In this document: piece by piece, positions 7,299 through 17,650 of the stretch
Numbering within the stretch: the stretch's first letter is position 1
Layout: each line of letters begins with the position of its first letter
Assembly (NCBI GenBank): GCA_042408215.1
Contig: JAYFMW010000017.1
Coordinates: forward strand, 740,951 to 804,950
Length of the DNA stretch: 64,000 nucleotides
Reading direction: 5' to 3'
DNA from: Microcoleus sp.
GTDB lineage: Bacteria > Cyanobacteriota > Cyanobacteriia > Cyanobacteriales > Microcoleaceae
Translations under genes and position numbers: made by a program
The notes under the pieces: generated by a model
Database searches by the model: none
Told to the model about the DNA's origin: nothing
What the model saw: only the letters and a program-made list of their open reading frames with translations

Positions 7299-7571
7299 TT
7301 AAAATACGGTTGTACAAACCCCGAATTGCCTCCAAGTTTGAGGGCCGACAATGCCGTCAGCTTCGATGCGTTTACTCCTTTGAAACTCGATCGCTGCTTG
7401 TTCGGTTTTCGGGCCGAACGATCCATCGGTAGCTAGGGAATACCCGTTGGCATTCAAGAGTCTCTGGAGGTAGCGCACGTCCTCATTTTGGGTAACGTCG
7501 TCATTACGTTTCAGTAGGGGAAAATAACGGCAGGAAGGTAATTCAGTGCGAGTTACAGTTGTGGTTTGCAT
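7299..7571 (-). CDS. small peptidoglycan-binding domain protein
   Basis: DVRYLQRLL..DGSFGPKTEQA..FQR..DGIVGPQTW pattern. Confidence 0.88.
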   Translation of the reverse strand: MQTTTVTRTELPSCRYFPLLKRNDDVTQNEDVRYLQRLLNANGYSLATDGSFGPKTEQAAIEFQRSKRIEADGIVGPQTWRQFGVCTTVF

Positions 7572-7642
7572 GATTTTATTTTCGATGAGTTGTTTGCAAG
7601 TTGTTGGAAGTACAGAAGTGGGGAAAAGATGTTAACTTTGAT

Positions 7643-7915
7643 TTAACCCCCGAAGGTACAAGCTCCCAATCGCTCCCAAGTTTGAGGGCCGACAATACCA
7701 TCAATAGCGATGCGTTTACTCCTTTGAAAATTGATAACTGCTTGTTCGGTTTTGCCACCGAATATTCCATCAATAGTTACCGGATATCCCTTCTGAGTCA
7801 ATTTTTGTTGGAGATATCGAACATCCTGATTGGGAGCGGCCTGATCGTTGCGTCTTAGTGTCGGTAATGAAGAGCACAAAGGTAATTGAGTATGGGTGGC
7901 ATTTGTAGTTTCCAT
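7643..7915 (-). CDS. small peptidoglycan-binding domain protein (tandem paralog)
   Basis: Same motifs; ATG 7915 gives 90 aa, the same length as the neighbour. Confidence 0.88.
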   Translation of the reverse strand: METTNATHTQLPLCSSLPTLRRNDQAAPNQDVRYLQQKLTQKGYPVTIDGIFGGKTEQAVINFQRSKRIAIDGIVGPQTWERLGACTFGG

Positions 7916-8197
7916 GGTTTGATTCTCGATTATTTTTTTTGGTTGCAAGTTGTTTTAACCTGCTATTCCCTAGTTGTAGCTGCGGGGGAAAGTGCTTTAA
8001 CAGTCGCTTTTTATAGTGACACTTATCTGAGGTAGCTCAGATGAGTGACACTCGAAGGTAGAAGGTAAGTTGTTGAGCATTAAAATTAAAGCTTTCGGGC
8101 GGGATCTCCAGCCCACCCCACAATAGTTGCATCAAACTTGACTGTAAAATTTAGATCTGCCTCAGCTTACAGCTTCTGGGAGGCGCGAGGCATTTAT

Positions 8198-9542
8198 CAG
8201 AAAATTGGGTTGAAAACCCCGTCCTAAAAGGACGGCTTTAATTGTAAACCTTTGTTACAATACCAGCTAATCTTGTACTGAAAGATCTAGCATAAGGCAG
8301 GAGGTAGAACAATGCTAGTTTTTGAGTTCAAAGCTTAGGTCAAATCCAGTCAGATTGCAGCAGTAAATGAAGCGATTCGTACAGCACAATTTGTCCGCAA
8401 TAGCTGTTTACGCTATTGGATGGACAACAAAAAAATAGATAAATATGATTTAAACAAATATTGTGCTGTATTGGCTCATAACTTCTCGTTTGCCGACGAA
8501 CTTAACTCTCAAGCTAGACAAGCTAGTGCTGAACGAGCCTGGTCTGCTATCTCCCGATTTTACGAGAACTGCAAAAAGTCAATTCCAGGTAAAAAAGGAT
8601 ATCCACAATTCCAGAAAGACTGTCGCTCAGTTGAGTATAAATCAACTGGCTGGAAACTTGCGGATGACAGGAAGTCGATCAAATTCACCGACAAAAAAGG
8701 AATTGGTAAACTCAAATTAAAGGGAACACGCGATCTGCATTTCTACCAAATCAGCCAAATAAAACGGGTGACATTGGTAAAACGCGCAGACGGCGTGTAT
8801 GTCCAATTATGTGTCGATGTCGATCGAAAGGAAAACATAGAACCCTCTGGTAACACCATTGGGTTAGATGTTGGCTTAAAGGAATACTACACCGATTCAA
8901 ACGGAGTGACGGTTGAAAATCCGAGATTTCTACGTCAAGGTGAAACAGTTCTTAAGCGCTCTCAACGTCGTGTATCTAGGAAGGTAAAAGGTTCAAAAAA
9001 TAGAGGCAAAGCTAGACAGATTTTAGGAAAACGCCATCTCAAAATAAGTCGGCAACGCAAAGACCATGCAATAAAACTTGCAAGGTGCGTAGAGAGCGTC
9101 AAACGACTTGATAGCTTAGGTCGATTTGAGGATGAAAAATATGGTGAAAAATCATTGTTTAGCTAAGTCTATTAACGATGCTTCTTGGTATCAGTTTCGG
9201 CTCTGGATTGAATACTTCGCGAAAGTATTTGAGAAAGTAACGGTTGCGGTAAATCCGCAATATACCAGCCAAGAATGCTCTAGCTGCGGTGAAATTGTGA
9301 AGAAAACGCTATCCACTAGAACCCATGTTTGTAAGTGCGGTTGTGTAATGGATAGAGATTTTAACGCAGCTAAAAATATCCTTAGTCGAGGATTGGGTAC
9401 GGTAGGGCATACCGGAACCTTTGCACTTGATGCAAGCAACGCTTTAGGAGAATCGACCTCTACTCTGGCTGGAGAAATCCAGCCTCAGCAAGTTGGCTCG
9501 TAGATTAAAGAATCCCCACGCCTTTAGGCTGGGGAGTGTCAA
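8198..9542 (+). mobile_element. IS200/IS605-family (TnpB-only) element
   Basis: TTAT target, left-end hairpin CCGTCCTAAAAGGACGG, right-end CCCCACGCCTTTAGGCTGGGG...TCAA. Confidence 0.9.
8312..9503 (+). pseudogene. tnpB: tnpB pseudogene
   Basis: MLVFEFKA start, GLDVGL, YTSQECSSCG, DRDFNAA; stops at 8336 and 9117 plus a frameshift near 9095. Confidence 0.9.
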
Positions 9543-9566
9543 CTAATGATATTATTCTGGGTCAGA

Positions 9567-10991
9567 TTAGCGACTTTCAAGGCGTTCCTGAAAACTGGTG
9601 TGGGGTTTGGACTTTAACTCAGAAGTGATACCGTAGTAGCGCATGATCGTAGTTTTGCGGCTGTCAAACAACTTGATAATTGAATCAATAACTATTTCTG
9701 TGACGATCGGGTTAAAGTCGGTAATAAAGTCGTCGGGGTCAATATTTTGTTTGAAAAACTCCTTAGCCCGATCGCACTGATAGCGCATTTCGTCAAAGCC
9801 AACACTTTTCACCATAAACGTTGTTAGTGGCGAGTTTTCCAAATCGGTATAGGTACTGCTTTTAGCCCGCCCATTTTCTAACAAATTCAATACTTCTGCT
9901 TCCAGGGCTGTTTTGGGTTCTAATGGTTGTTTAATTTCGGGGAAAAAGCTTTCCAAGCGTACGCCGCCACTAACTCGATCGGGAAGTTCGCCCATCACCA
10001 TTGCCAGAGAAACATCTAGTCCAAAACCCGAAGAAAGCGCCTCAATCATGGCGATTCCAGCCAGTTTGCAGCCCAAATAAAGCCTCGCGAGCTCAAGATT
10101 GTTCCGAGCAGTATTTTCCCACCGCTGATAGGTACTGTCATCTGGATATCCGTCAAATTGCCGAAAAATTAGCTCAGGATTGAGATAATTCATAAAGCCT
10201 TCCATTTTCAGCAAAGCAACTCGGTAGTCACGAACCGTGTAAAAACCGTAGGTGAGAGTATGATTTGTTTCCGGCAATAAGTTCCAGGTATTTGCCAAAA
10301 AAAGTGCCGCACTTTCGTAAGCAAAACTCATCACATCGCGGTTGGCAATTCCGACAGCTTTTTTGATTGTTTGCCGCATTTTATCCTCAGTCAAACTGAG
10401 GTTAAACTGCATATTTATTGATGGCAAACGATCGTACAGTCGCTGGCTGACGGTGACTCCCCATTCGATCGCCCGAAACGGAATGGTTGCTTCTATGCAG
10501 GCTGCGATTTCCAGTAAATGCTCGCGTTTGAGAAATGGTTCTAGAGCTTTGGCTGCTACCAGAGCACTGAGAAATTCGTTTAGTCCGGCGAAAGGATTTA
10601 GCACTTCCCCCGGCACAAAACCAAATACTACCATTACCATCTCGAAGATGGCATCTGCCGTTAACTCAGATTTCTCCCGAATTTGTAGCTGTTTGTTAAC
10701 CTCTTTTATAACAGGAGTAATGTAGTGGCTAACGTTCAAACTAATGCTGCGATCGACTTGTACGTAGACAATATCGTGAAATAAAGCAGCCAAAACTTCG
10801 ATCGCATCTTCATTTCCCCCCACATCAAAAATATGTTCGGGAGTGTGAAAAAATCGCCACTGGCCCATCATCGGCTGAACTATCAGTTCGGCAATCCGAG
10901 CGAGTTGAGTTGGTTCGACTTCTACATCCAGCCTCGCCGTCGCCCAAATCAGCTTTTCTAAACACTGTAAGTATGGTTTGCTATCCATCAC
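9567..10991 (-). CDS. HD-superfamily metal-dependent phosphohydrolase-like protein
   Basis: RFFHTPEH and LAALFHDIVY motifs. Confidence 0.65.
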   Translation of the reverse strand: MMDSKPYLQCLEKLIWATARLDVEVEPTQLARIAELIVQPMMGQWRFFHTPEHIFDVGGNEDAIEVLAALFHDIVYVQVDRSISLNVSHYITPVIKEVNKQLQIREKSELTADAIFEMVMVVFGFVPGEVLNPFAGLNEFLSALVAAKALEPFLKREHLLEIAACIEATIPFRAIEWGVTVSQRLYDRLPSINMQFNLSLTEDKMRQTIKKAVGIANRDVMSFAYESAALFLANTWNLLPETNHTLTYGFYTVRDYRVALLKMEGFMNYLNPELIFRQFDGYPDDSTYQRWENTARNNLELARLYLGCKLAGIAMIEALSSGFGLDVSLAMVMGELPDRVSGGVRLESFFPEIKQPLEPKTALEAEVLNLLENGRAKSSTYTDLENSPLTTFMVKSVGFDEMRYQCDRAKEFFKQNIDPDDFITDFNPIVTEIVIDSIIKLFDSRKTTIMRYYGITSELKSKPHTSFQERLESR

Positions 10992-11165
10992 AGTCTTTTC
11001 CTATAACATTACTGTCACGTCAGCCAGACTCAGTTTAATTTTTGTTTTCCAGATGCACCTCGGATTTTTTTATTTTTTATTTTTGAGATTGCTGCGCAAC
11101 GCAGGGTCGTACAGTTGAAGACTGGAGCGGGGAATTGAGGATGCAAGTCTTTACTTAAAATCAAT

Positions 11166-11786
11166 TTACTGTCCGGTAGCCGATCGCCCTTGTTTTCCCA
11201 GTCTAATTAGCACAAAATAGGATAAGTAAGCTACATAAATCAGTAAACCTAATAGACCTAAAAAGCCTAAAAATTGAGGGTTGGTGGTAGCGTGAAACAT
11301 CTGTTTGTAGAACCAAGGTGGGTCTAGCCAAACGCGACAAAAAGGTTCGTCGATGACCTGATTTTGAGATTTGAAGGCACAAGTTAAGAAGGGAATTTGA
11401 GCGATCGCACCCAAACCGCTGTAAACAGTAATCGCCCACCGCCAAGCAGTAAAAGCCAGCTTTAAAGGCGATTGGGGTCGATCGGCAATTTCTTCATTCA
11501 AATCTGTCCAAAACCATAGACAAGCAGGAATCAAGGCCCTCCCCATCACCGACGATACAAAGCTGACAGGCACCGCAGCCATCATCAGGTAAAGTGTAAT
11601 TGCCAGCAAACTAGCCACTCGCCAATAAATAATCGACAAGCGGACGATCGCCTCAGCTTTCTCAACAACAGCCCAAATCAGCACTACCAGCGGGATCGAA
11701 ACCGTTAATAACACAGACAACCGATAATCCATCCAGACTAGGGGTTGAAACCAAGGCCCGGTAGCTGCCAATAAAAGACTCAACAT
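11166..11786 (-). CDS. DUF3177-like membrane protein
   Basis: LVWMDYRL, YWRVASLL, RLGKQGRSA C-terminus; multiple TM segments. Confidence 0.8.
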   Translation of the reverse strand: MLSLLLAATGPWFQPLVWMDYRLSVLLTVSIPLVVLIWAVVEKAEAIVRLSIIYWRVASLLAITLYLMMAAVPVSFVSSVMGRALIPACLWFWTDLNEEIADRPQSPLKLAFTAWRWAITVYSGLGAIAQIPFLTCAFKSQNQVIDEPFCRVWLDPPWFYKQMFHATTNPQFLGFLGLLGLLIYVAYLSYFVLIRLGKQGRSATGQ

Positions 11787-11985
11787 CTTTGGGAAAATAT
11801 ACTCACTTATTTGTGGAAAATCTTACTACAAAAAAGCCAAAAAATCAGCAACTGGGACATCTCTTCATGTTCCAGTTGCTGCTGCACTTTTACCAGATGT
11901 AGGTTAGAGAGTTTCAAAGGTAAATGACGAAGGTATTACGGCAAATCTCGCCCTCACCTTTCGCCTCCACCTTTAAGTTGCCGCT

Positions 11986-12222
11986 TTATTCGTCGTAGAT
12001 GCGGCACTCAGCAGCGTCAGGGTTGTCATCGCAATATTTTTCAAAGGAATTCTTAGGTTTGACCTGCTTTTGGTGGGAAGCTTCTGCTTGCAGTTCTTCA
12101 ACTGCGTCCCACGCCGCCGCACACTCGCCAGACGTGCTGCCACTGATGTCGCAGACGGTACGAGCGTTTTCGAGTTCTTCTTCAATTTTTTCTTGGATGT
12201 TGCCAGGGGGTGTTGTTGTCAT
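11986..12222 (-). CDS. cp12: Calvin cycle protein CP12
   Basis: CAAAWDAVEEL core and YCDDNPDAAECRIYDE; start at 12222 because the longer ORF runs into an IS end. Confidence 0.95.
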   Translation of the reverse strand: MTTTPPGNIQEKIEEELENARTVCDISGSTSGECAAAWDAVEELQAEASHQKQVKPKNSFEKYCDDNPDAAECRIYDE

Positions 12223-12256
12223 AAAAAAAAATTTCGGGAGTGTGCTACTGCTACTG

Positions 12257-12540
12257 CTGCTATACAAAACTTGGCTAAACTTATCAAATCGCTTCACCAT
12301 TCAACTAGAACTAATTTCTAGAGGGTCTGCTTCCTGCTTCCACCAAGGGAGTCGGCTCTCAACTTGTCCACAGGCGTAAATTCGGGTGTAGCCCACCCTA
12401 CTGTTTATGCAAACATTACACTTGACACTGATACTTTTAATTGGGACAATCTCCGACAATCTGAGACAATCCCCATATAGCCTTCCTATTGCTAGGAAAG
12501 GTGGTATCCCACAAAGCTATTGCCGTGAGACAATAGCGCT
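12257..12540 (-). mobile_element. non-coding IS607-type element with TnpB omega-RNA-like right end (element E)
   Basis: Minus strand: ATTGTC direct repeats, GGGTGGGCTACACCCGAATTTACGCCTGTGGAC...GAAGCAGGAAG, terminus AAGTTTTGTATAGCAG; left boundary approximate. Confidence 0.65.
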
Positions 12541-12548
12541 TTTTCATG

Positions 12549-12797
12549 TCAAAGACACCTGCAAACATTCAGGACTACGCCTATAAATAGGTACGCCTGT
12601 ATTTGCTGGTAGCTGAACAAGCTTTCGCGGTTAGTGACTTTCGTAGTCCCAAGTTGCTGATGTCCTTTAAGCCGAACCATTGGTTTCTGACTTATCTAAG
12701 TTTATCAGAGCAGCGCGATTTTTTGGGAAAGTATTTGTTAAACACAATTACTGACATTGTTGGGCTTATTACGGGAAAGTCTTGGAAATAGTCGTCC
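12549..12797 (-). mobile_element. non-coding structured element, probably IS607-derived (element B)
   Basis: TTTCC repeats at the 5' end; long imperfect stem AAAGGACATC..GGGACTACG / CGTAGTCC..GGTGTCTTT. Confidence 0.4.
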
Positions 12798-12928
12798 TAG
12801 TAACTGCTCCTCGACCTTTAGGTACGAGGATGCTTGAGCTAATCACTGCCCTTTGGGGTTGCCCCTACTTAGGTCTTACAGGATTATGTCTAGTCCGAGC
12901 CTACTAGAATATCACCTGATATCTAGAA

Positions 12929-13243
12929 CCGCTTCTAAAAATCTACAGAAATCTGTAGGTCAAACTTAGCGGTTTATGTTTAGCCCTTATCGGATGCTCT
13001 AAGCTTCCCGATTGCTCAGGTTGGCCTGATCTTCCCAGTTAGAGACTGCCTTGATTTAGCAGAGGACTTAAAATATTTGGTTTTTTGATGATTAGTTTGA
13101 GCAAGAGTGTTTCTGTGGTTTTCACACCAAGTAAGCTTTAACATCCCGCACTAATCAAGCGTTTCTCAAGTTTATCACGATTGTTGTGAAAGTCGTCAAG
13201 GTCTGAAAAAATCTAGGTAAATCTAGGTATTTTGGCTACTGCC
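12929..13243 (-). mobile_element. non-coding IS607-type element (element C)
   Basis: GG dinucleotide at both ends, TACCTAGAT direct repeats at left end, right end GTAGATTTTTAGAAGCGG. Confidence 0.6.
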
Positions 13244-13284
13244 ACTACCCCTTTTAATGGACTACTCGCCAAGCGTTTACCCAT

Positions 13285-13795
13285 TTGACACTCCCCAGCT
13301 ATCAAGGCGTGGGGATTCTTGGTTCTAGCGACACACCTTAAAACTAGCTATCCTTGCGGCAATACTTAAACCAAATATCCGTTCAAAGGAACCAAAGATC
13401 GAGCCTAATTTAGTTAGTCCCAGAGGGTTTGATCTCCCCAAGCGTTCGAGAATTACTTCTCATGTTACCGGATGCCCTACGGTACGTTTTAACTTCCCAA
13501 AATTTACTTTTCTGATTTTGGCTTACATGAGTCAGCCTAGCTAGGTTTTTCGTGGTTTTCGCCACCCACTAACCATTATTGTTTTCCGACCCGTCGTTTG
13601 AGCTTAGTGTCTCATGTGTATCGGCGGTTATTCTACCTGTGGCCTAAGTATTATTCTACTCTATTTTAAAGAGAATGCAAGGAAATTTGAAAAATAGATA
13701 TTAAATGCTTGAATGCTTATCAGGTAGACCCTTAATTAAAGCCGTCCTATAAGGACGGGGCCCCGGCCTCCCGCTACGCTCCGCCCAATTTTGTG
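13285..13795 (-). mobile_element. non-coding IS605-type element carrying a TnpB omega-RNA scaffold (element A)
   Basis: TTAC target, CCGTCCTTATAGGACGG left hairpin, ACCGTAGGGCATCCGG..AACGCTTGGGGAGA scaffold, right end nearly identical to 9508-9542. Confidence 0.85.
13653..13680 (-). promoter_or_regulatory. putative sigma70 promoter inside element A
   Basis: TTGCAT-16 nt-TAGAAT upstream of the omega-RNA scaffold. Confidence 0.4.
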
Positions 13796-13885
13796 GTAAG
13801 GGTACGTTCCCTTGTGCCCCGTTGTGAGCGAAGCGAAGCAATCTGCGGATTACTACGAATTTTTGCTTGTATCATTCAGATACAT

Positions 13886-15574
13886 TTAATCCGGTAAATC
13901 CCGGACTAAGCCAGGAATAACCGTGTATGGCAAGACAGAGAAAGCAACAAGCTCTCCTGTCAAGGAGGTATCTCTCAAAGCTTTCAACAAAATATTGAAA
14001 GCGCCATTTTGATCTCTATCTAGAATGTGTCCGCATTCTGGACATTTAAAAACTTTAGACCCGCTCAATTTAGTATGGATCTGCCCACATTTTGAGCAAG
14101 TTTTCGATGTGTACTCTTCTGTTACGTCTACTACAACACCACCGTGTTTGGTGGCTTGATGCTTCAACATTTGTTGAAAACGATAATGACTCAAAGTGAC
14201 CATCGCTCTAGCGGTTTTAGTTGCCAACCTGCGCTTACCTTTCTTGACCATTTGTTGTGTCTCAAAGGTTGGCAAGAAAATTAACTTGTACTTACCTGTC
14301 AAATATTTTGCAGCTTTTTTGTGCAATTCATTGACTAAGTTTTTGATTTTGATTCTGATTTTTGCTGCGGATTTTCGCAAGCAATACCTCAGTCGCTTGA
14401 ATGGCCTTCCTTTACTTACCCCAATTCGCGACATTAATTTATCGAGATGTCTTGCTAGCCGATAGATGCGGCCAATATCGTTTTTCCCTATTTCGATGAA
14501 ACCACTGCCGTCAAAACCAGTAAGGAAAGTTCTAACACCCGGAGCTAACGCGATCGCCAAATCGCTATTGATTGGCTTCATACCTCGTGCATCAATCGCA
14601 TAGCAGATAAACCACTGCCTGTTAATCAAGCTGAGTGTTGGTTCGTGTTGCATTACCTCAACGATTGGTTCTGATGTTTTAAAGCTTAGCCCCTTGGTAG
14701 AAGTTGGGTAAAAAGTACCTAACTTCCAGTTAGATGTTTGGAACCGGATAGTCTCAGATGTGTCGAAACGGCTTCTAAACTTTGCCGTTCCCTTGACTTT
14801 CTTAGCAGCTTTGTGCGCTTCAAAAGCTTGAAATACTGCCATTTGTCGCGGATTGTAAGGCTGCTCGGATACCCACTTAGGAGCCGAGTCCATTACTTTC
14901 TTTCTTAAATCGTACTTGCCAATTTTTGCGTTTTTAAGAATAGCAATTGCTTGGTTGTAACACCACCTACTTGCTGAGAGCCAAGTCCTCCATTTCGCTG
15001 CTAGCTTGGTTTCCGGGTAAACTCGAATCTTCTTTGATAGCAGATTTGTATTTTCGCAGACCGTAGAGTCGGCAACTAAAGACGTGGATGATGGCAAGGA
15101 TATCTTCAACCATTTCTCGTTCTGGAGACAACTCATTTCTACTGAGAACCATGAGTTGGCAATTGTTTTGCTCGCAGATCCATTTGATGAGATCGCCACC
15201 GAACCTTGCGAGTCTGTCTTGGTGTCCGACCACAACTGCCGAGATATCTCCTGACATGACTTGTCCCAGAAGGGCAAGCAGCGCTTTTCTTTTAAAGTTG
15301 AGTCCGCCTCCGATGTCTTTGAAGACTTTAGCTTGCGGATAGAGACTTTGGAGGTAGCTGACTTGTCTGTCGAGGTCTTCTCGCTGTTTGTAGCTACTGA
15401 CCCTGGCGTAGATGGCTGTAATTCGGTCGTGTCCGGTTCCAAGAACGCTGTCGATGTCGTAGCGTCGCTGGTTGGATGGGGTTCTGATGGCTGATATTTT
15501 GTCGGCAAGTTCCCAGTTTCTAAGGGTTTTATCTGAGACTTGCAGGATTTTGCAAGCTTCTCGCGGTGTGACAT
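13886..15574 (-). CDS. tnpB: IS607 TnpB of the Fanzor-related clade, RuvC-I Asp replaced by Ala (start uncertain)
   Basis: KKIRVYP, SRWCYNQA, IALAPGVRTF, VTEEYTSKTCSKCG..CPECG, DRDQNGAFNI. Confidence 0.88.
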   Translation of the reverse strand: MSHREKLAKSCKSQIKPLETGNLPTKYQPSEPHPTSDATTSTAFLEPDTTELQPSTPGSVATNSEKTSTDKSATSKVSIRKLKSSKTSEADSTLKEKRCLPFWDKSCQEISRQLWSDTKTDSQGSVAISSNGSASKTIANSWFSVEMSCLQNEKWLKISLPSSTSLVADSTVCENTNLLSKKIRVYPETKLAAKWRTWLSASRWCYNQAIAILKNAKIGKYDLRKKVMDSAPKWVSEQPYNPRQMAVFQAFEAHKAAKKVKGTAKFRSRFDTSETIRFQTSNWKLGTFYPTSTKGLSFKTSEPIVEVMQHEPTLSLINRQWFICYAIDARGMKPINSDLAIALAPGVRTFLTGFDGSGFIEIGKNDIGRIYRLARHLDKLMSRIGVSKGRPFKRLRYCLRKSAAKIRIKIKNLVNELHKKAAKYLTGKYKLIFLPTFETQQMVKKGKRRLATKTARAMVTLSHYRFQQMLKHQATKHGGVVVDVTEEYTSKTCSKCGQIHTKLSGSKVFKCPECGHILDRDQNGAFNILLKALRDTSLTGELVAFSVLPYTVIPGLVRDLPD

Positions 15575-15584
15575 ATCTGGTCAT
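14967..15584 (-). CDS. tnpA: IS607 serine recombinase TnpA
   Basis: MerR-like HTH (VSDKTLRNW), IYARVSS..Q catalytic motif, DRLARFG. Confidence 0.95.
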   Translation of the reverse strand: MTRYVTPREACKILQVSDKTLRNWELADKISAIRTPSNQRRYDIDSVLGTGHDRITAIYARVSSYKQREDLDRQVSYLQSLYPQAKVFKDIGGGLNFKRKALLALLGQVMSGDISAVVVGHQDRLARFGGDLIKWICEQNNCQLMVLSRNELSPEREMVEDILAIIHVFSCRLYGLRKYKSAIKEDSSLPGNQASSEMEDLALSK

Positions 15585-16074
15585 CGCTAGATGGTATTTT
15601 TGTTCTCAATACATAGTACCAGATTTTACAGGGATTTACCAAAACTTTCTAGGAAATCATTTACTTTGTGTCATTCAGTCTTGATGATAGACTTACTGCA
15701 CTGTTTAACGAGTTATCGTTGCTCGTGGTCTTTTCTATTTCCCAAGCTGTCCTGTGGCACTGTTTGGGCCATATTTGTCGGGCCGGTCTGGGCGGATTAT
15801 AACCTGAAACCAACTAGATTGTAGCATTTAAAGTCCCCCTAGAAGGGGGAGGCTTTAAACCCAATTTTTCGGTAATTAGCGTGTAGAACTGTATTTAGCT
15901 GGATCTTTTAAGATTTAGCTCACAATAAATCTCGTTAACACTAAACGGATTGATTGGCTGCATATGTTAACTTATATTAACACAAAAACGGCTGTCTCAC
16001 CGAATCGATCGCCAAGAAAGTAGCGTCATGGGGGAGACCGATGCAGGTTAGCCTAGTGTACAAGATAGTTTTAT

Positions 16075-16384
16075 CAGAAAATTGGGTAGAAAACCCCGTC
16101 CTTATAGGACGGCTTTTTCTACGACTCGTGCTCAGTCAGAAATCCGCATGGAGTTGGGTAGACATATCCACGCACCCACCTGTGTGTGGTAGAGTAAATG
16201 CATCAGACAAGATTTAAAAACCTACCCCTGGACTGGGGGAAAGTATACGCCCAAAACACTTTTGAGGAGATCTGACTACACACATTTTTGTGCAAACGTG
16301 GTCAGCGAAAGGAACCCTAGAAATAGGGATATTAAGACTGAAATGTCTTAAGAATCCTCGGGCCTGTATGCCGAGGAGTGTCAA
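16075..16384 (+). mobile_element. non-coding IS605-type element (310 bp)
   Basis: TTAT target, left end like 8198, right end AAGAATCCTCGGGCCTGTATGCCGAGGAGTGTCAA; no ORF. Confidence 0.85.
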
Positions 16385-16399
16385 AGAGAATTTTGTCAT

Positions 16400-17650
16400 A
16401 TGTATGCTCAAAACCAAATGCAATGGGTCAGCGCTTTATCAACCCGTCCCTCTTTAGAATCAGCCCTCAAAGAAGTTGTAGAACAAGCTGAGCGATCGCT
16501 AGAAGGCCCCGCAGATTTAGGTCTGATCTTTATCTCGTCTGCCTTTGCTTCGGAGTATTCTCGGCTGATGCCTTTACTCGCAGAATTACTGCCGATTCCG
16601 GCTCTGATTGGCTGCGGGGCGATCGGGATCGTTGGTACCAATCAGGGCGGCGTTACCGAAGAAGTAGAGGGTTCTCCAGCCGTCAGCTTGACTCTGGCGC
16701 GCTTGCCGGGAGTGAATGTCAGAACTTTTCACGTCGGTGGCGAACAACTGCCGGATTTAGACAGTCCCCCAGATACTTGGGTGGATCTCTTGGGTGTCCC
16801 GGCAGAGGAAGAACCGCAGTTCATCATCTTAGCCGATCCCTTTTCGTCAAAAATTAACGACCTGCTGCAAGGGCTAGATTATGCCTATCCGGGCGCGCCG
16901 AAGGTAGGGGGACTGGCGGGCGGGGACGGTAGCAGGGGTACGGCGCTGTTCTGCAACTATCAGCTTTACCGAGAAGGGACGGTTGGGGTGGCTTTGAGCG
17001 GCAATATTGTTTTGGAGACGATCGTTGCTCAAGGTTGTAGACCGATCGGGCGTCCCTATCGGGTGACGGAAGGAGAGCGCAATATTTTGCTCAAACTCGA
17101 AGAACAAACCGACGATTCAGGGTTCGGGGGGACTGGGCGATCGCCCTTAGAATCCCTGCGAGAGTTGGTGCAAACTTTGAGCGAAAAAGACCGAGAATTA
17201 GCCCAGCACTCGCTATTTGTAGGCTTAGTGAGCGATGAATTCAAGGTTCTATTAGAGCCTGGAGATTTTTTAATCCGAAATCTGTTGGGGGTAGATCCGA
17301 AAGTGGGAGCCATTGCGATCGGCGATCGAGTCCGTCCTGGACAGCGGATTCAATTTCACCTCCGGGACGCCCGCACCTCCGCAGAAGACCTAGAAATGCT
17401 GCTAGAACGCTATCAGCGATCGGGCGAATACAGGGGTAAATCCAGTGCCGGTGCCTTGATGTTCTCTTGTCTAGGGCGTGGCGAAGGGCTTTACGGCGAG
17501 CCCAACTTTGACTCGCGGCTTTTTAGTCGATACCTCAACAACATCCCCCTGAGTGGCTTTTTCTGCAACGGCGAAATCGGCCCCGTCAGCGGAAACACCT
17601 TTCTGCACGGCTACACCTCCGTATTTGGGATTTGCCGCCAAAATTCATAA
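16400..17650 (+). CDS. FIST N/C domain protein
   Basis: VGGLAGG, VAQGCRPIG, MFSCLGRG, GFFCNGEIGP. Confidence 0.92.
   Translation: MYAQNQMQWVSALSTRPSLESALKEVVEQAERSLEGPADLGLIFISSAFASEYSRLMPLLAELLPIPALIGCGAIGIVGTNQGGVTEEVEGSPAVSLTLARLPGVNVRTFHVGGEQLPDLDSPPDTWVDLLGVPAEEEPQFIILADPFSSKINDLLQGLDYAYPGAPKVGGLAGGDGSRGTALFCNYQLYREGTVGVALSGNIVLETIVAQGCRPIGRPYRVTEGERNILLKLEEQTDDSGFGGTGRSPLESLRELVQTLSEKDRELAQHSLFVGLVSDEFKVLLEPGDFLIRNLLGVDPKVGAIAIGDRVRPGQRIQFHLRDARTSAEDLEMLLERYQRSGEYRGKSSAGALMFSCLGRGEGLYGEPNFDSRLFSRYLNNIPLSGFFCNGEIGPVSGNTFLHGYTSVFGICRQNS

What the first reader, a model, noticed from the sequence alone, without database searches (positions are those of the whole stretch)
12257..15871. Nested stack of about six co-oriented omega-RNA transposons upstream of cp12
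Seen: the apparently empty 1.6 kb plus the IS607 parse into nested units. Excising element A (13285-13795) at TTAC restores GGGGCACAAGGGAACG-TACCC TTACAT GGGTA-AACGCTTGG, the same scaffold-hairpin-AACGCTT layout seen in the TnpB right end at 9400-9450. Excising C (12929-13243) at its GG cores and the IS607 rebuilds one outer IS605 element (D). Elements B and E lie in tandem after it, all on the minus strand. Inference: TnpB guides come from the sequence flanking the right end, so the inner elements' guides point at uninterrupted copies of the outer element family. The locus could be a transposon-versus-transposon guide stack or polycistronic guide array rather than debris.
Basis: partly seen in the sequence, partly recalled or inferred. 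Interest (0 to 1): 0.8.

Follow-up and report, generated by a model that had tools for sequence, protein, structure and literature searches.

The report
Transposon pile-up upstream of cp12
The 3.6 kb in front of the cp12 gene of this Microcoleus-type cyanobacterium is one old gene-less jumping element that four other jumping elements later landed in; it is a clean but ordinary example of transposons piling into each other, not a new guide-RNA system.

Summary
Window 12422-15871 (minus strand) is one roughly 440-bp TnpB-less IS200/IS605-type element (D) with an omega-RNA scaffold, inserted after a TTAC.

Four elements sit directly inside D:
- an IS607 (13877-15675);
- a 511-bp omega-RNA-only element, A (13285-13795, at a TTAC in a D hairpin loop);
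- a 321-bp element, C (12929-13249, GG cores);
- a 381-bp repeat, B (12428-12808).

Dispersed copies fix each boundary. Relatives in other genera carry uninterrupted D-like elements that span all the junctions. Related genomes show the empty cp12 site.

- B is nested in D's right end, not in tandem after it.
- E (12257-12400) is an older truncated relic outside D.
- The IS607 core is TG, not GG.

The "guide stack" reading is not supported:
- D is single-copy in this genome.
- None of the eight junction guides has a second site at two or fewer mismatches.
- The IS607 TnpB has lost its RuvC-I aspartate.

The guides are the default empty-site guides that any such insertion creates. RNA evidence is only a weak hint.

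Earlier notes of this scan describe comparable nested guide-only elements on other DNA (e1-5568881, e1-7776912).

The parts
11986..12222 (-). cp12 gene. The likely start is ATG 12222-12220; the listed ORF runs on to 12300.
   Evidence: Pfam CP12, E 1.2e-32. Homology to relatives stops at 12223-12245.
12257..12400 (-). E: truncated 3' part of a roughly 410-bp dispersed repeat family, ending ...GTATAGCAG. It is older than D and lies outside it.
   Evidence: About 11 matches in the own genome at 75-92%. Alignments; long form. A diverged counterpart sits at the same site in L091 and L099.
12401..12421 (.). Ancestral spacer shared with relatives (TTTATGCAAACATTAC...).
   Evidence: Read in L091, L092 and L099.
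12422..15871 (-). D as a whole: a TnpB-less IS200/IS605-type element of about 440 bp of its own sequence. Its left end starts CGAAAAATTGGG at 15871 and its right end finishes TGTCAA at 12422. It carries four nested insertions.
   Evidence: Own pieces are unique in the genome. Uninterrupted relatives L081, L082, L085, L086 and L087 align across the junctions. A profile hit on 12807-12930 covers model positions 110-234 of 240.
12422..12427 (-). Tip of D's right end (TGTCAA), cut off from the rest by B.
   Evidence: Relatives' right ends read ...GAGGGAGTGTCAA. The window reads ...CGAGGAG[B]TGTCAAG.
12428..12808 (.). B: a repeat of about 381 bp (boundaries plus or minus 2), nested in D's right end, with AG on both sides. 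Its transposition mechanism and parent element are unresolved.
   Evidence: Two other copies at 96.1 and 95.3% with unrelated flanks. Full-length copies elsewhere only in G041; its last 55-90 nt are widespread.
12809..12928 (-). D piece 3: the 3' part of D's omega-RNA scaffold.
   Evidence: 77-90% identical to relatives in other genera. nhmmer E 3e-24.
12929..13249 (-). C: a 321-bp non-autonomous element with GG at both junctions, ending ...GAAGCGG. It derives from elements that encode a roughly 500-aa TnpB-related protein.
   Evidence: Four other full copies in the genome. Found in 29 of 79 genomes of the genus. A 1.65-kb element with C-like ends and a 503-aa ORF is at L136.
13250..13284 (-). 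D piece 1 (ATGGGTAAACGCTTGGCGAG...). This is also the guide position of A.
   Evidence: Aligns with the AACGCTTGGAGAG module of the relatives.
13285..13795 (-). A: a 511-bp TnpB-less IS200/IS605-type element. The left-end hairpin is CCGTCCTTATAGGACGG; the omega-RNA scaffold is about 13520-13285; the right end is ...GGGGAGTGTCAA.
   Evidence: Three close copies with other flanks. Scaffold alignment and covariation. nhmmer E 9.4e-37. Only a 51-aa ORF inside.
13796..13876 (-). D piece 2, containing the TTAC (13799-13796) used by A. This is also the guide position of the IS607.
13877..15675 (-). IS607-family element. tnpA (serine recombinase) is 14967-15584 and tnpB is 13886-about 15040. The right end reads ...ATGTATCTG, and CTG also precedes the left end (15678-15676). 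The RuvC-I Asp of tnpB is replaced by Ala (codon 14545-14543).
   Evidence: Pfam Resolvase plus MerR, and Cas12f1-like_TNB. Homology stops at 13876/13877 in 37 of 76 loci and at 15666-15684 in 18. Asp is present in 14 of 14 relatives.
15676..15871 (-). D piece 5: the left end with hairpin AAAGCCTCCCCC...GGGGGACTTT and internal sequence.
   Evidence: Aligns with the left ends of L085, L086 and L087. Left-end hairpin family hits.
15872..15875 (-). TTAC target/TAM next to D's left end.
   Evidence: Relatives read AATTCACC / TGGAATTG here with no element.
16075..16384 (+). F: a 310-bp omega-RNA-only element on the opposite strand, outside the stated range, inserted after TTAT. Its guide position covers the start codon (16400) of the FIST-domain gene.
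   Evidence: Four to five copies at 95-97%. Absent in 21 of 29 syntenic loci, where 16074/83 abuts 16377. nhmmer E 4e-22.

Best explanation
The locus is a passive insertion pile.

Step 1, shown by empty sites: a gene-less IS200/IS605-type element with a TnpB guide-RNA (omega-RNA) scaffold, D, inserted after a TTAC about 170 nt upstream of cp12, next to an older repeat relic, E.

Step 2, shown by copy boundaries and by uninterrupted D relatives: D was then hit four separate times.
- A inserted at a TTAC in the loop of a D scaffold hairpin, as expected for a Y1-transposase single-strand insertion.
- The IS607 inserted at a (C)TG.
- C inserted at a GG.
- B inserted at an AG. Matching dinucleotides at both junctions fit serine-recombinase insertion. 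This is inferred for C and weakly inferred for B.

All four sit directly in D; none sits inside another.

Step 3, inferred from published TnpB biology: the guide of a TnpB omega-RNA is whatever lies beyond the right end. Each inner element's guide therefore spells its own pre-insertion site inside D. That is the normal arrangement by which TnpB cuts an emptied site and restores the element. It does not point to competition between transposons.

D's own scaffold is destroyed. The stack accumulated because D is old, dead and neutral DNA in a tolerant intergenic region.
For: - Unit boundaries come from independent copies. They also come from contigs of four public runs that diverge exactly at 12256, 12400, 12427, 12926/8, 13242, 13284/7, 13799, 13877, 15673 and 16384/5.
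- Uninterrupted D relatives: of 11 loci, 11 span the C junction, 6 the A junction and 5 the IS607 junction.
- Empty site: none of 29 syntenic loci has D-specific DNA. In 26 of 29 the 15874/87-16074 block lies 50-600 nt from cp12.
- The scaffold is shared with a tnpB-linked right end, and 13 of 26 predicted pairs show compensatory changes.
- Inner elements are younger than D. A is 97% identical to its nearest copy, C 94-96%, B 96% and the IS607 98.8%; D is at most 90% identical to anything found.
- The genome is heavily colonised. The profile gives 115 hits. A regular expression gives 160 right-end-like motifs, of which 121 have no tnpB coding sequence upstream. There are 20 Y1 transposase matches, at least 11 of them full length without stops.
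- No second target exists for any of the 8 junction guides at two or fewer mismatches.
Against: - Four hits in one 440-bp element is striking. In the profile scan D's piece is the only 1 of 115 hits that stops before the model's 3' end. That test is crude and did not even detect D's own short pieces.
- One exact 608-nt contig (12706-13313) in an RNA library bridges B, D, C, D and A at word depth 36, against 5-8 over the IS607. The nested part may therefore be transcribed as one RNA.
- High-depth RNA-library contigs cover just the A-family scaffold: 13291-13568 at depth 365 in X15 and 13292-13430 at depth 194 in X14. DNA runs are flat across this stretch. The tool warns that contig depth is a poor measure of expression and that DNA can be present in RNA libraries.
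- An apparently intact 371-aa TnpB elsewhere (C30:561-562.4 kb) carries a terminal hairpin identical to A's. Use of A's RNA in trans is therefore possible.
Confidence: 0.8

Rival explanations
1. The stack is an active self-retaining nest. The minus-strand units are co-transcribed. Their omega-RNAs are processed and loaded onto TnpB proteins made elsewhere in the genome. Each complex then cuts the empty site of its own element, or a D copy lacking it arriving by gene transfer. Repair from the filled allele keeps the inner elements in D or copies them into it.
For: - Published passages state that gene-less PATE-like elements often encode omega-RNAs that must be used in trans, and that TnpB cuts donor joints to restore the element (PMC10055086, passages read; 10.1101/2023.11.20.567912, passages read).
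- A's scaffold is intact and shows covariation.
- A possible partner TnpB has an identical terminal hairpin.
- Y1 transposases are present.
- There are RNA-library contig hints.
Against: - No empty-site or D-only allele was seen: there were no joints in four runs, and D is unique in the genome.
- All 15 or more A-type long scaffolds lack tnpB. The tnpB-linked elements share only the last 41 nt with A, so loading is unproven.
- The IS607 TnpB lacks its RuvC-I Asp.
- Neither strand nor processing can be read from contigs.
Confidence: 0.15
2. The stack is transposon-versus-transposon warfare or a polycistronic guide array. On this view the inner elements' guides are selected to attack uninterrupted copies of the outer family.
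For: Only the geometry: the guide positions of A, C and the IS607 read D sequence.
Against: - There is no uninterrupted D in this genome.
- No near-match targets exist.
- D relatives have TTGA rather than TTAC, and different TAM-proximal bases, at A's site.
- The units are unrelated families with no repeated architecture.
- The geometry is automatic for any nested insertion.
Confidence: 0.03
3. The stack has been domesticated to regulate cp12. It would supply promoters or read-through transcription for the co-oriented cp12 gene. Alternatively, the nuclease-dead IS607 TnpB would act as an RNA-guided repressor.
For: - The insertions moved the ancestral upstream block (15874-16083) 3.6 kb away from cp12.
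- All typed units are co-oriented with cp12.
- The TnpB carries an Asp-to-Ala change.
Against: - The Asp-to-Ala change is private to this lineage. All 14 relatives keep Asp, and the two RNA-library contigs covering the site (X14, X15) read the Asp codon.
- The guide of the IS607 matches only its own flank.
- The promoter-like scan is not above chance: 4 found against 6.2 +/- 2.9 expected.
- D is absent from all 29 syntenic loci.
Confidence: 0.04
4. The nested structure is an assembly artefact made by collapsing repeats.
For: The region consists of repeats, and the genome is a 30-contig draft.
Against: Independent contigs from public runs bridge the junctions. X2 covers 12723-12957 and 13732-13904 with no other letters, and 15640-16118 with one; X13 covers 13732-13858 with none; X14 covers 12706-13313 with none. 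The best DNA holder may be the source sample, but several studies hold the junctions.
Confidence: 0.01

Closest known systems
PATE-like gene-less IS200/IS605 elements carrying omega-RNAs (Geobacillus stearothermophilus; Meers et al. 2023 preprint, PMC10055086, passages read)
   Same: A, D and F have no protein gene. They share left- and right-end hairpins with tnpB-bearing elements, insert after a TTAC/TTAT motif without duplication, and keep a right-end scaffold homologous to a tnpB-linked one.
   Different: The A/D scaffold is about 90 nt longer in the middle than that of the tnpB-linked copies in this genome. Here one such element carries four other elements inside it. No RNA or activity data exist.
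IS607-family transposons with TnpA serine recombinase and TnpB (10.1101/2023.11.20.567912, passages read)
   Same: tnpA (MerR-type HTH plus resolvase domain) overlaps tnpB. The same short motif stands at the left flank and at the right end. The guide position is directly beyond the right end.
   Different: The core here is (C)TG rather than the GG/TGGG reported for the Clostridium element. No group I intron was detected (Rfam scan). The RuvC-I Asp is replaced by Ala in this copy.
Nested IS/MITE clusters in cyanobacterial genomes
   Same: Small non-autonomous elements accumulate in intergenic DNA and inside each other. The same genome has other dense clusters at C17:197-209 kb and C20:546-547 kb.
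   Different: That such clusters are common in cyanobacteria is my recollection. The three literature searches listed genome papers on cyanobacterial MITEs, but I read none of them for nesting.
TnpB-related proteins of the TIGR01766 / SSO2105_N type
   Same: The 503-aa protein inside the full-length relative of C matches NF040570 (E 1.1e-9, 38 bits, below the cut-off of 100) and TIGR01766 (E 3.4e-7). Its nearest Atlas clusters carry that name. The aligned D, E and D positions are kept.
   Different: It has no Zn-finger (TNB) module and no Pfam hit. Its link to C rests on similar ends in one locus of another genome.

Membership tests
Non-autonomous IS200/IS605 (PATE-like) element with omega-RNA: A and D | Insertion directly 3' of a short target/TAM motif, with no target duplication | tested here: met
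   A has TTAC before the left end in the window and in 2 of 3 other copies; the third copy has a diverged left-end tip. Flanks are not duplicated. D has TTAC at 15875-15872, and the empty site is seen in relatives.
Non-autonomous IS200/IS605 (PATE-like) element with omega-RNA: A and D | Subterminal hairpins at the left and right ends, asymmetric ends, no inverted terminal repeats | tested here: met
   The left-end hairpins are CCGTCCTTATAGGACGG in A and CCTCCCCC...GGGGGA in D. The right-end hairpin is CCCCACGCC...GCTGGGG, followed by AGTGTCAA.
Non-autonomous IS200/IS605 (PATE-like) element with omega-RNA: A and D | No transposase or nuclease gene inside | tested here: met
   Only a 51-aa ORF lies within A. 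D's own 440 bp have no ORF of 50 aa or more.
Non-autonomous IS200/IS605 (PATE-like) element with omega-RNA: A and D | Right-end scaffold homologous to the omega-RNA region of a tnpB-bearing element, with a conserved structure | tested here: met
   Alignment with 9306-9545, next to a frameshifted tnpB. Compensatory changes in 13 of 26 pairs. Profile hits.
Non-autonomous IS200/IS605 (PATE-like) element with omega-RNA: A and D | RNA is made, processed and bound by a TnpB; the element is mobilised by a Y1 TnpA in trans | not testable with these tools
   Only the components are present: Y1 genes, a candidate TnpB, and RNA-library contigs as a weak hint.
IS607 family (13877-15675) | Serine-recombinase TnpA with an N-terminal MerR-type HTH, followed by tnpB | tested here: met
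   Resolvase E 2.2e-17, MerR E 9.2e-10, Cas12f1-like_TNB E 2.1e-23.
IS607 family (13877-15675) | Identical core nucleotides at the left flank and the right end | tested here: met
   CTG at 15678-15676 and at 13879-13877. The same holds in the 12 aligned left ends and 14 aligned right ends of other copies.
IS607 family (13877-15675) | TnpB with a complete RuvC D-E-D triad (an active nuclease) | tested here: not met
   The window reads IALAPGVRTF where 14 of 14 relatives read ALDPGVRTF. The codon is GCT at 14545-14543.
IS607-type non-autonomous element: C | GG core at both junctions and a scaffold ending in ..CGG | tested here: met
   The sequence reads AAAA-GG|GGTAGTGG...GAAGC-GG|TT. The other 4 copies start GGG and end GCGG. 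This fits the GG core and UCGG end in the passages.
IS607-type non-autonomous element: C | A cognate serine recombinase element with the same ends | tested here: not met
   No C-like sequence lies downstream of 13 IS607-like tnpB genes of the genome. The only long relative found carries a TnpB-related ORF and no recombinase.
CRISPR-like or tandem guide array | A repeated identical scaffold alternating with variable guides, in tandem | tested here: not met
   The units belong to different families and are nested, not tandem.
Domesticated nuclease-dead TnpB regulator (TldR-like) | The dead nuclease is conserved across relatives, with a guide matching a host promoter | tested here: not met
   The change is private to this lineage. 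The guide has no other site.

The most novel reading that the evidence does not exclude
The pile is a hyperparasitic, self-retaining nest. Guide-only elements (A, and perhaps C) use TnpB proteins made elsewhere to cut any D copy that lacks them, so they home into another transposon and ride on it. The whole minus-strand stack is made as one long RNA that yields several guides and reads on into cp12.
Probability: 0.07. Interest if true: 0.6.

Novelty: new member of a known kind. Interest (0 to 1): 0.3.

Why it matters
As it stands, this is a well-resolved natural example of three things:
- TnpB-less omega-RNA elements and IS607-type elements accumulating inside a dead relative.
- Two transposase chemistries leaving readable junction signatures in one 440-bp target: Y1 insertion at TTAC, and serine-recombinase insertion at matching dinucleotides.
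- A guide position coming to read another element's scaffold.

It is useful for annotating Microcoleus/Tychonema genomes, where such "empty" intergenic DNA is common. It is also a ready-made test case for trans use of orphan omega-RNAs. It opens no new question unless the RNAs prove to be processed and loaded.

Tried and rejected
- The Rfam scan of 7500-17500 gave only a chance-level mir-628 hit (28 bits against a gathering score of 75).
I used an nhmmer profile of the same alignment instead.
- The search for split scaffolds elsewhere found no pairs, but the test is insensitive and missed D's own short pieces.
- A search for an IS607 parent of C found no C-like DNA downstream of 13 tnpB genes.
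- The 503-aa ORF in C's long relative has no Pfam hit and no PDB sequence hit.
- B's parent is unresolved. There is a weak, non-significant resemblance of its ends to the 500-aa-ORF elements. No such ORF lies next to B-like right ends in 4 loci.
- The long form of E gave no match in the 29 syntenic loci.
- The C family shows too little variation to test structure: 1 of 47 pairs has a compensatory change (which also held a stray 2-nt row by my slip).
- The promoter scan is not above chance: 4 found against 6.2 +/- 2.9 expected.
- Read laying showed no joints, so no empty-site or excised forms. Some bins had no cover in some runs (13469-13891 in X14, 15725-16006 in X14, X15 and X13). This says nothing, because all the runs are contigs.
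- Earlier notes of this scan near this place: none.
- Literature searches listed no paper on nested omega-RNA-only elements in Microcoleus. I read only passages of two preprints.

Full report
SETTING

The window is contig C17:740951-804950 of a 7.36-Mb, 30-contig genome. The titles of the closest loci name Microcoleus and Tychonema.

The genes around the finding are as follows:
- cp12 at 11986-12222 on the minus strand (Pfam CP12, E 1.2e-32).
- A DUF3177 gene at 11166-11786.
- A FIST-domain gene starting at 16400.
- A frameshifted tnpB at 8420-9503.
- An IS607-type pair: tnpA at 14967-15584 (Resolvase plus MerR) and tnpB at 13886-about 15040 (Cas12f1-like TNB).

Rfam finds nothing meaningful in 7500-17500.

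THE UNITS ARE REAL

BLAST of 12200-16400 against the own genome gave 174 rows, including the self match. It resolves the "empty" DNA into blocks with sharp edges:
- 12257-12400 (E), about 11 matches.
- 12427-12810 (B), 2 other copies.
- 12928-13241 (C), 4 other full copies.
- 13284-13799 (A), 3 close copies and many distant ones.
- 16070-16385 (F), 4-5 copies.

Alignments with flanks show that homology stops at the unit ends and that the flanks are unrelated. Contigs of four public runs independently diverge at the same places: 12256, 12400, 12427, 12926/8, 13242, 13284/7, 13799, 13877, 15673 and 16384/5.

ELEMENT A

A is 13795 down to 13285 on the minus strand, 511 bp. TTAC (13799-13796) is followed by CACAAAATTGGG, then the hairpin CCGTCCTTATAGGACGG, and the element ends ...GGGGAGTGTCAA. 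There is no duplication of the flank.

THE IS607

Of 76 loci in other genomes that encode relatives of its TnpB, the DNA match stops at 13876/13877 in 37. It starts between 15666 and 15684 in 18. The aligned ends read flank-CTG|TTGACACAAAGTAAA... and ...TAAATGTATCTG|flank.

A roughly 330-bp derivative keeps the left end and the last 130 nt of tnpB. It occurs 5 times in this genome and ends at the same CTG.

ELEMENT D

D's own pieces are unique in this genome. Beyond 13877 the sequence is not IS607. I removed A, C and the IS607 in a script and compared the result with relatives, which I found by searching with 12790-12927. At E <= 0.001, 43 of 144 genomes of the family matched, most of them only over the terminal hairpin; 11 loci were fetched.
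- 11 of 11 loci align across the C junction.
- 6 of 11 align across the A junction.
- 5 of 11 align across the IS607 junction.
- L085, L086, L082, L087 and L081 align from near the left end (TTAT|CGAAAATTTTGGG...) to the right end (...GGGAGTGTCAA).

At A's site the relatives have a stem-loop (for example TTGG-TTGAAATA-CCAA) followed by AACGCTTGGAGAG. In the window the stem is TACCC/GGGTA, with TTAC in the loop.

D's left end starts at 15871, after TTAC at 15875-15872.

B IS NESTED, NOT IN TANDEM

Relatives' right ends read ...CGAGGGAGTGTCAA. The window reads ...CGAGGAG, then B, then TGTCAAG. The closest relative's empty site continues directly with the sequence found after that TGTCAAG. B therefore splits D seven bases from its end. 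It has AG on both sides, and D ends at 12422.

B has 2 other copies here and full-length copies in only one other genome of the genus. Its last 55-90 nt are widespread. Its parent element is unresolved.

ELEMENT C

C is 13249 down to 12929, with GG at both junctions. Family members occur in 29 of 79 genomes of the genus. One locus in another genome (L136) has C-like ends 1.65 kb apart, around a 503-aa ORF. That ORF has no Pfam hit. It matches the NCBIfam TnpB families only weakly (NF040570, E 1.1e-9, 38 bits against a cut-off of 100). Its nearest Atlas clusters are named TnpB-related. Three full homologues lie in this genome. C is therefore a gene-less derivative of a TnpB-related-protein element. 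That it still encodes a guide RNA is plausible but untested, because the family varies too little.

E IS OLDER

E is the last 145 bp of a roughly 410-bp family. Two relatives that lack D (L091, L099) have a diverged counterpart at the same spot.

THE EMPTY SITE

77 of 79 genomes of the genus matched cp12, and I compared the 29 loci that were fetched.
- 0 of 29 contain D-specific DNA.
- 26 of 29 carry the block homologous to 15874/87-16074/83 only 50-600 nt from cp12.
- In 21 of 29 that block abuts 16377, so F is also an insertion.

The closest relative reads ...TTTATGCAAACATTACAGGTGAATTAGCGTG... where the window has ...CATTACACTTGACA[B...D]GGTAATTAGCGTG.

THE SCAFFOLD IS AN OMEGA-RNA SCAFFOLD

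D relatives, A, F and the tnpB-linked right end at 9306-9545 align over two modules. One is GTAGGGTAGGGCATACC...hairpin...AACGCTTGGAGAG. The other is AAGAATCCCC...GGGAGTGTCAA. RNAalifold predicts 26 pairs, of which 13 show compensatory changes.

An nhmmer profile of this alignment finds 115 hits in the genome. In the window it finds A, F, the 9358-9542 end and D's piece 12807-12930. That last hit covers model positions 110-234 of 240, as expected if C and B cut it. The 115 hits divide into 29 full, 35 3' parts reaching the end, 50 terminal hairpins only, and 1 internal fragment, which is D.

A simple right-end motif occurs 160 times, 121 of them without tnpB coding sequence just upstream. There are 20 Y1 transposase matches, at least 11 of them full length without stops.

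TESTING THE FUNCTIONAL READING

I took the 20 nt beyond each of 8 right ends (A, IS607, C, D, B, E, F and the 9545 end). None has a second site in the genome at two or fewer mismatches. The best other sites have 3-4 mismatches and no matching TAM. D is single-copy. Relatives' D differ from A's TAM and TAM-proximal bases.

The IS607 TnpB reads IALAPGVRTF where 14 of 14 relatives read ALDPGVRTF. The RuvC-I aspartate is therefore lost, with codon GCT at 14545-14543. At 14544 the two RNA-library contigs (X14, X15) read the Asp codon, while the DNA runs X2 and X13 carry the window's base.

All 15 or more long A-type scaffolds lack tnpB. The tnpB-linked copies share only the last 41 nt with A. One of them, at C30:561-562.4 kb, has an apparently intact 371-aa TnpB and a terminal hairpin identical to A's.

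No joints, and so no empty-site or excised forms, were seen in four runs.

RNA EVIDENCE

All the runs are contigs, so strand, ends and level cannot be read.

One exact 608-nt contig in an RNA library (X14, 12706-13313, no mismatches, depth 36) bridges B, D, C, D and A, while the IS607 stands at depth 5-8 in the same library. High-depth RNA-library contigs coincide with the A-family scaffold: X15 at 13291-13568, depth 365, with 6 mismatches, so from another copy; X14 at 13292-13430, depth 194. The DNA runs are flat across this stretch. I count this as a weak hint that A-type omega-RNAs are expressed and that the nested part is transcribed, and no more than that.

COMPARISON WITH THE LITERATURE

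- Passages of Meers et al. (PMC10055086) describe gene-less PATE-like IS200/IS605 elements that "often encode" omega-RNAs needing TnpB in trans. They also describe TnpB cutting emptied donor sites.
- Passages of the IStron preprint (10.1101/2023.11.20.567912) describe IS607 core dinucleotides, a matching TAM, and a scaffold that ends at the core.

A, D, F, the IS607 and C fit these descriptions, with the differences listed under Closest known systems. That Y1 elements prefer single-stranded targets, and that nested MITE clusters are common in cyanobacteria, is my recollection and not from a call. Earlier notes of this scan describe nested guide-only elements in other genomes. I did not test them.

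VERDICT

The anatomy needs four corrections: B is nested, E is older and lies outside D, the IS607 core is TG, and C's left edge is about 13249.

The best explanation is neutral accumulation of four insertions in an old, dead omega-RNA element, with default empty-site guides (confidence 0.8). A working self-retaining nest remains possible (about 0.15). The warfare or guide-array reading is disfavoured.

Noticed in passing
window 14543-14545 (minus-strand codon GCT): The IS607 TnpB has Ala where 14 of 14 relatives have the RuvC-I catalytic Asp. The two RNA-library contigs over the site (X14, X15) read the Asp codon, while the DNA runs X2 and X13 carry the window's base.
   Followed up: yes
window 16075-16384 (+): F is a 310-bp omega-RNA-only element inserted after TTAT, 15 nt before the FIST-domain gene. 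Its guide position (16385-16404) covers that gene's start codon. It is absent in 21 of 29 syntenic loci.
   Followed up: partly
L136:146-1657 (another genome); own genome C17:671099-672556(-), C6:850040-851494, C20:253139-254641: A roughly 500-aa TnpB-related protein family with no Pfam hit and no Zn-finger module. The aligned D-E-D positions are kept. It is carried by 1.65-kb elements whose ends resemble element C.
   Followed up: partly
own genome C8:83400-83824, C20:98300-98717, C17:200800-201211, C30:496000-496407, C6:996237-996650: A roughly 330-bp IS607-derived mini-element keeps the left end and the last 130 nt of tnpB, which is the presumed omega-RNA region. It ends at the same ...ATGTATCTG as the full IS607.
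   Followed up: partly
window 8420-9545 (+): A frameshifted tnpB (ORFs 8420-9166 and 9126-9503) with its omega-RNA region at 9358-9542 and a left-end hairpin near 8190-8243.
   Followed up: partly
own genome C17:197000-209000 (L001) and C20:546000-547200: Other dense clusters of the same repeat families (copies of B, E, F, A and left ends). Pile-ups are therefore not unique to the cp12 locus.
   Followed up: partly
own genome C20:546012-546439, C6:786757-787187, C27:24246-24696: Some long-form E copies carry an extra palindromic insert of about 26-30 bp (GGGACACGGCAGTGCCGTGTCC-like) at one or two positions. This looks like a tiny hairpin repeat nested in a repeat.
   Followed up: no
window 9567-10991 (-): A 474-aa ORF with no Pfam family at E <= 0.01.
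   Followed up: no
window 12223-12256 and syntenic loci L091-L119: DNA similarity to relatives stops 1-23 nt upstream of the cp12 start codon. The spacer between cp12 and the conserved 15874-16083 block varies from about 50 to 600 nt among relatives. The cp12 upstream region therefore changes repeatedly in this genus.
   Followed up: partly
G090:C85:25281-26090, G064 and G086: In three other genomes a C-family copy is itself split at about position 150 by roughly 500 bp of other DNA, so nesting also affects C elsewhere.
   Followed up: no
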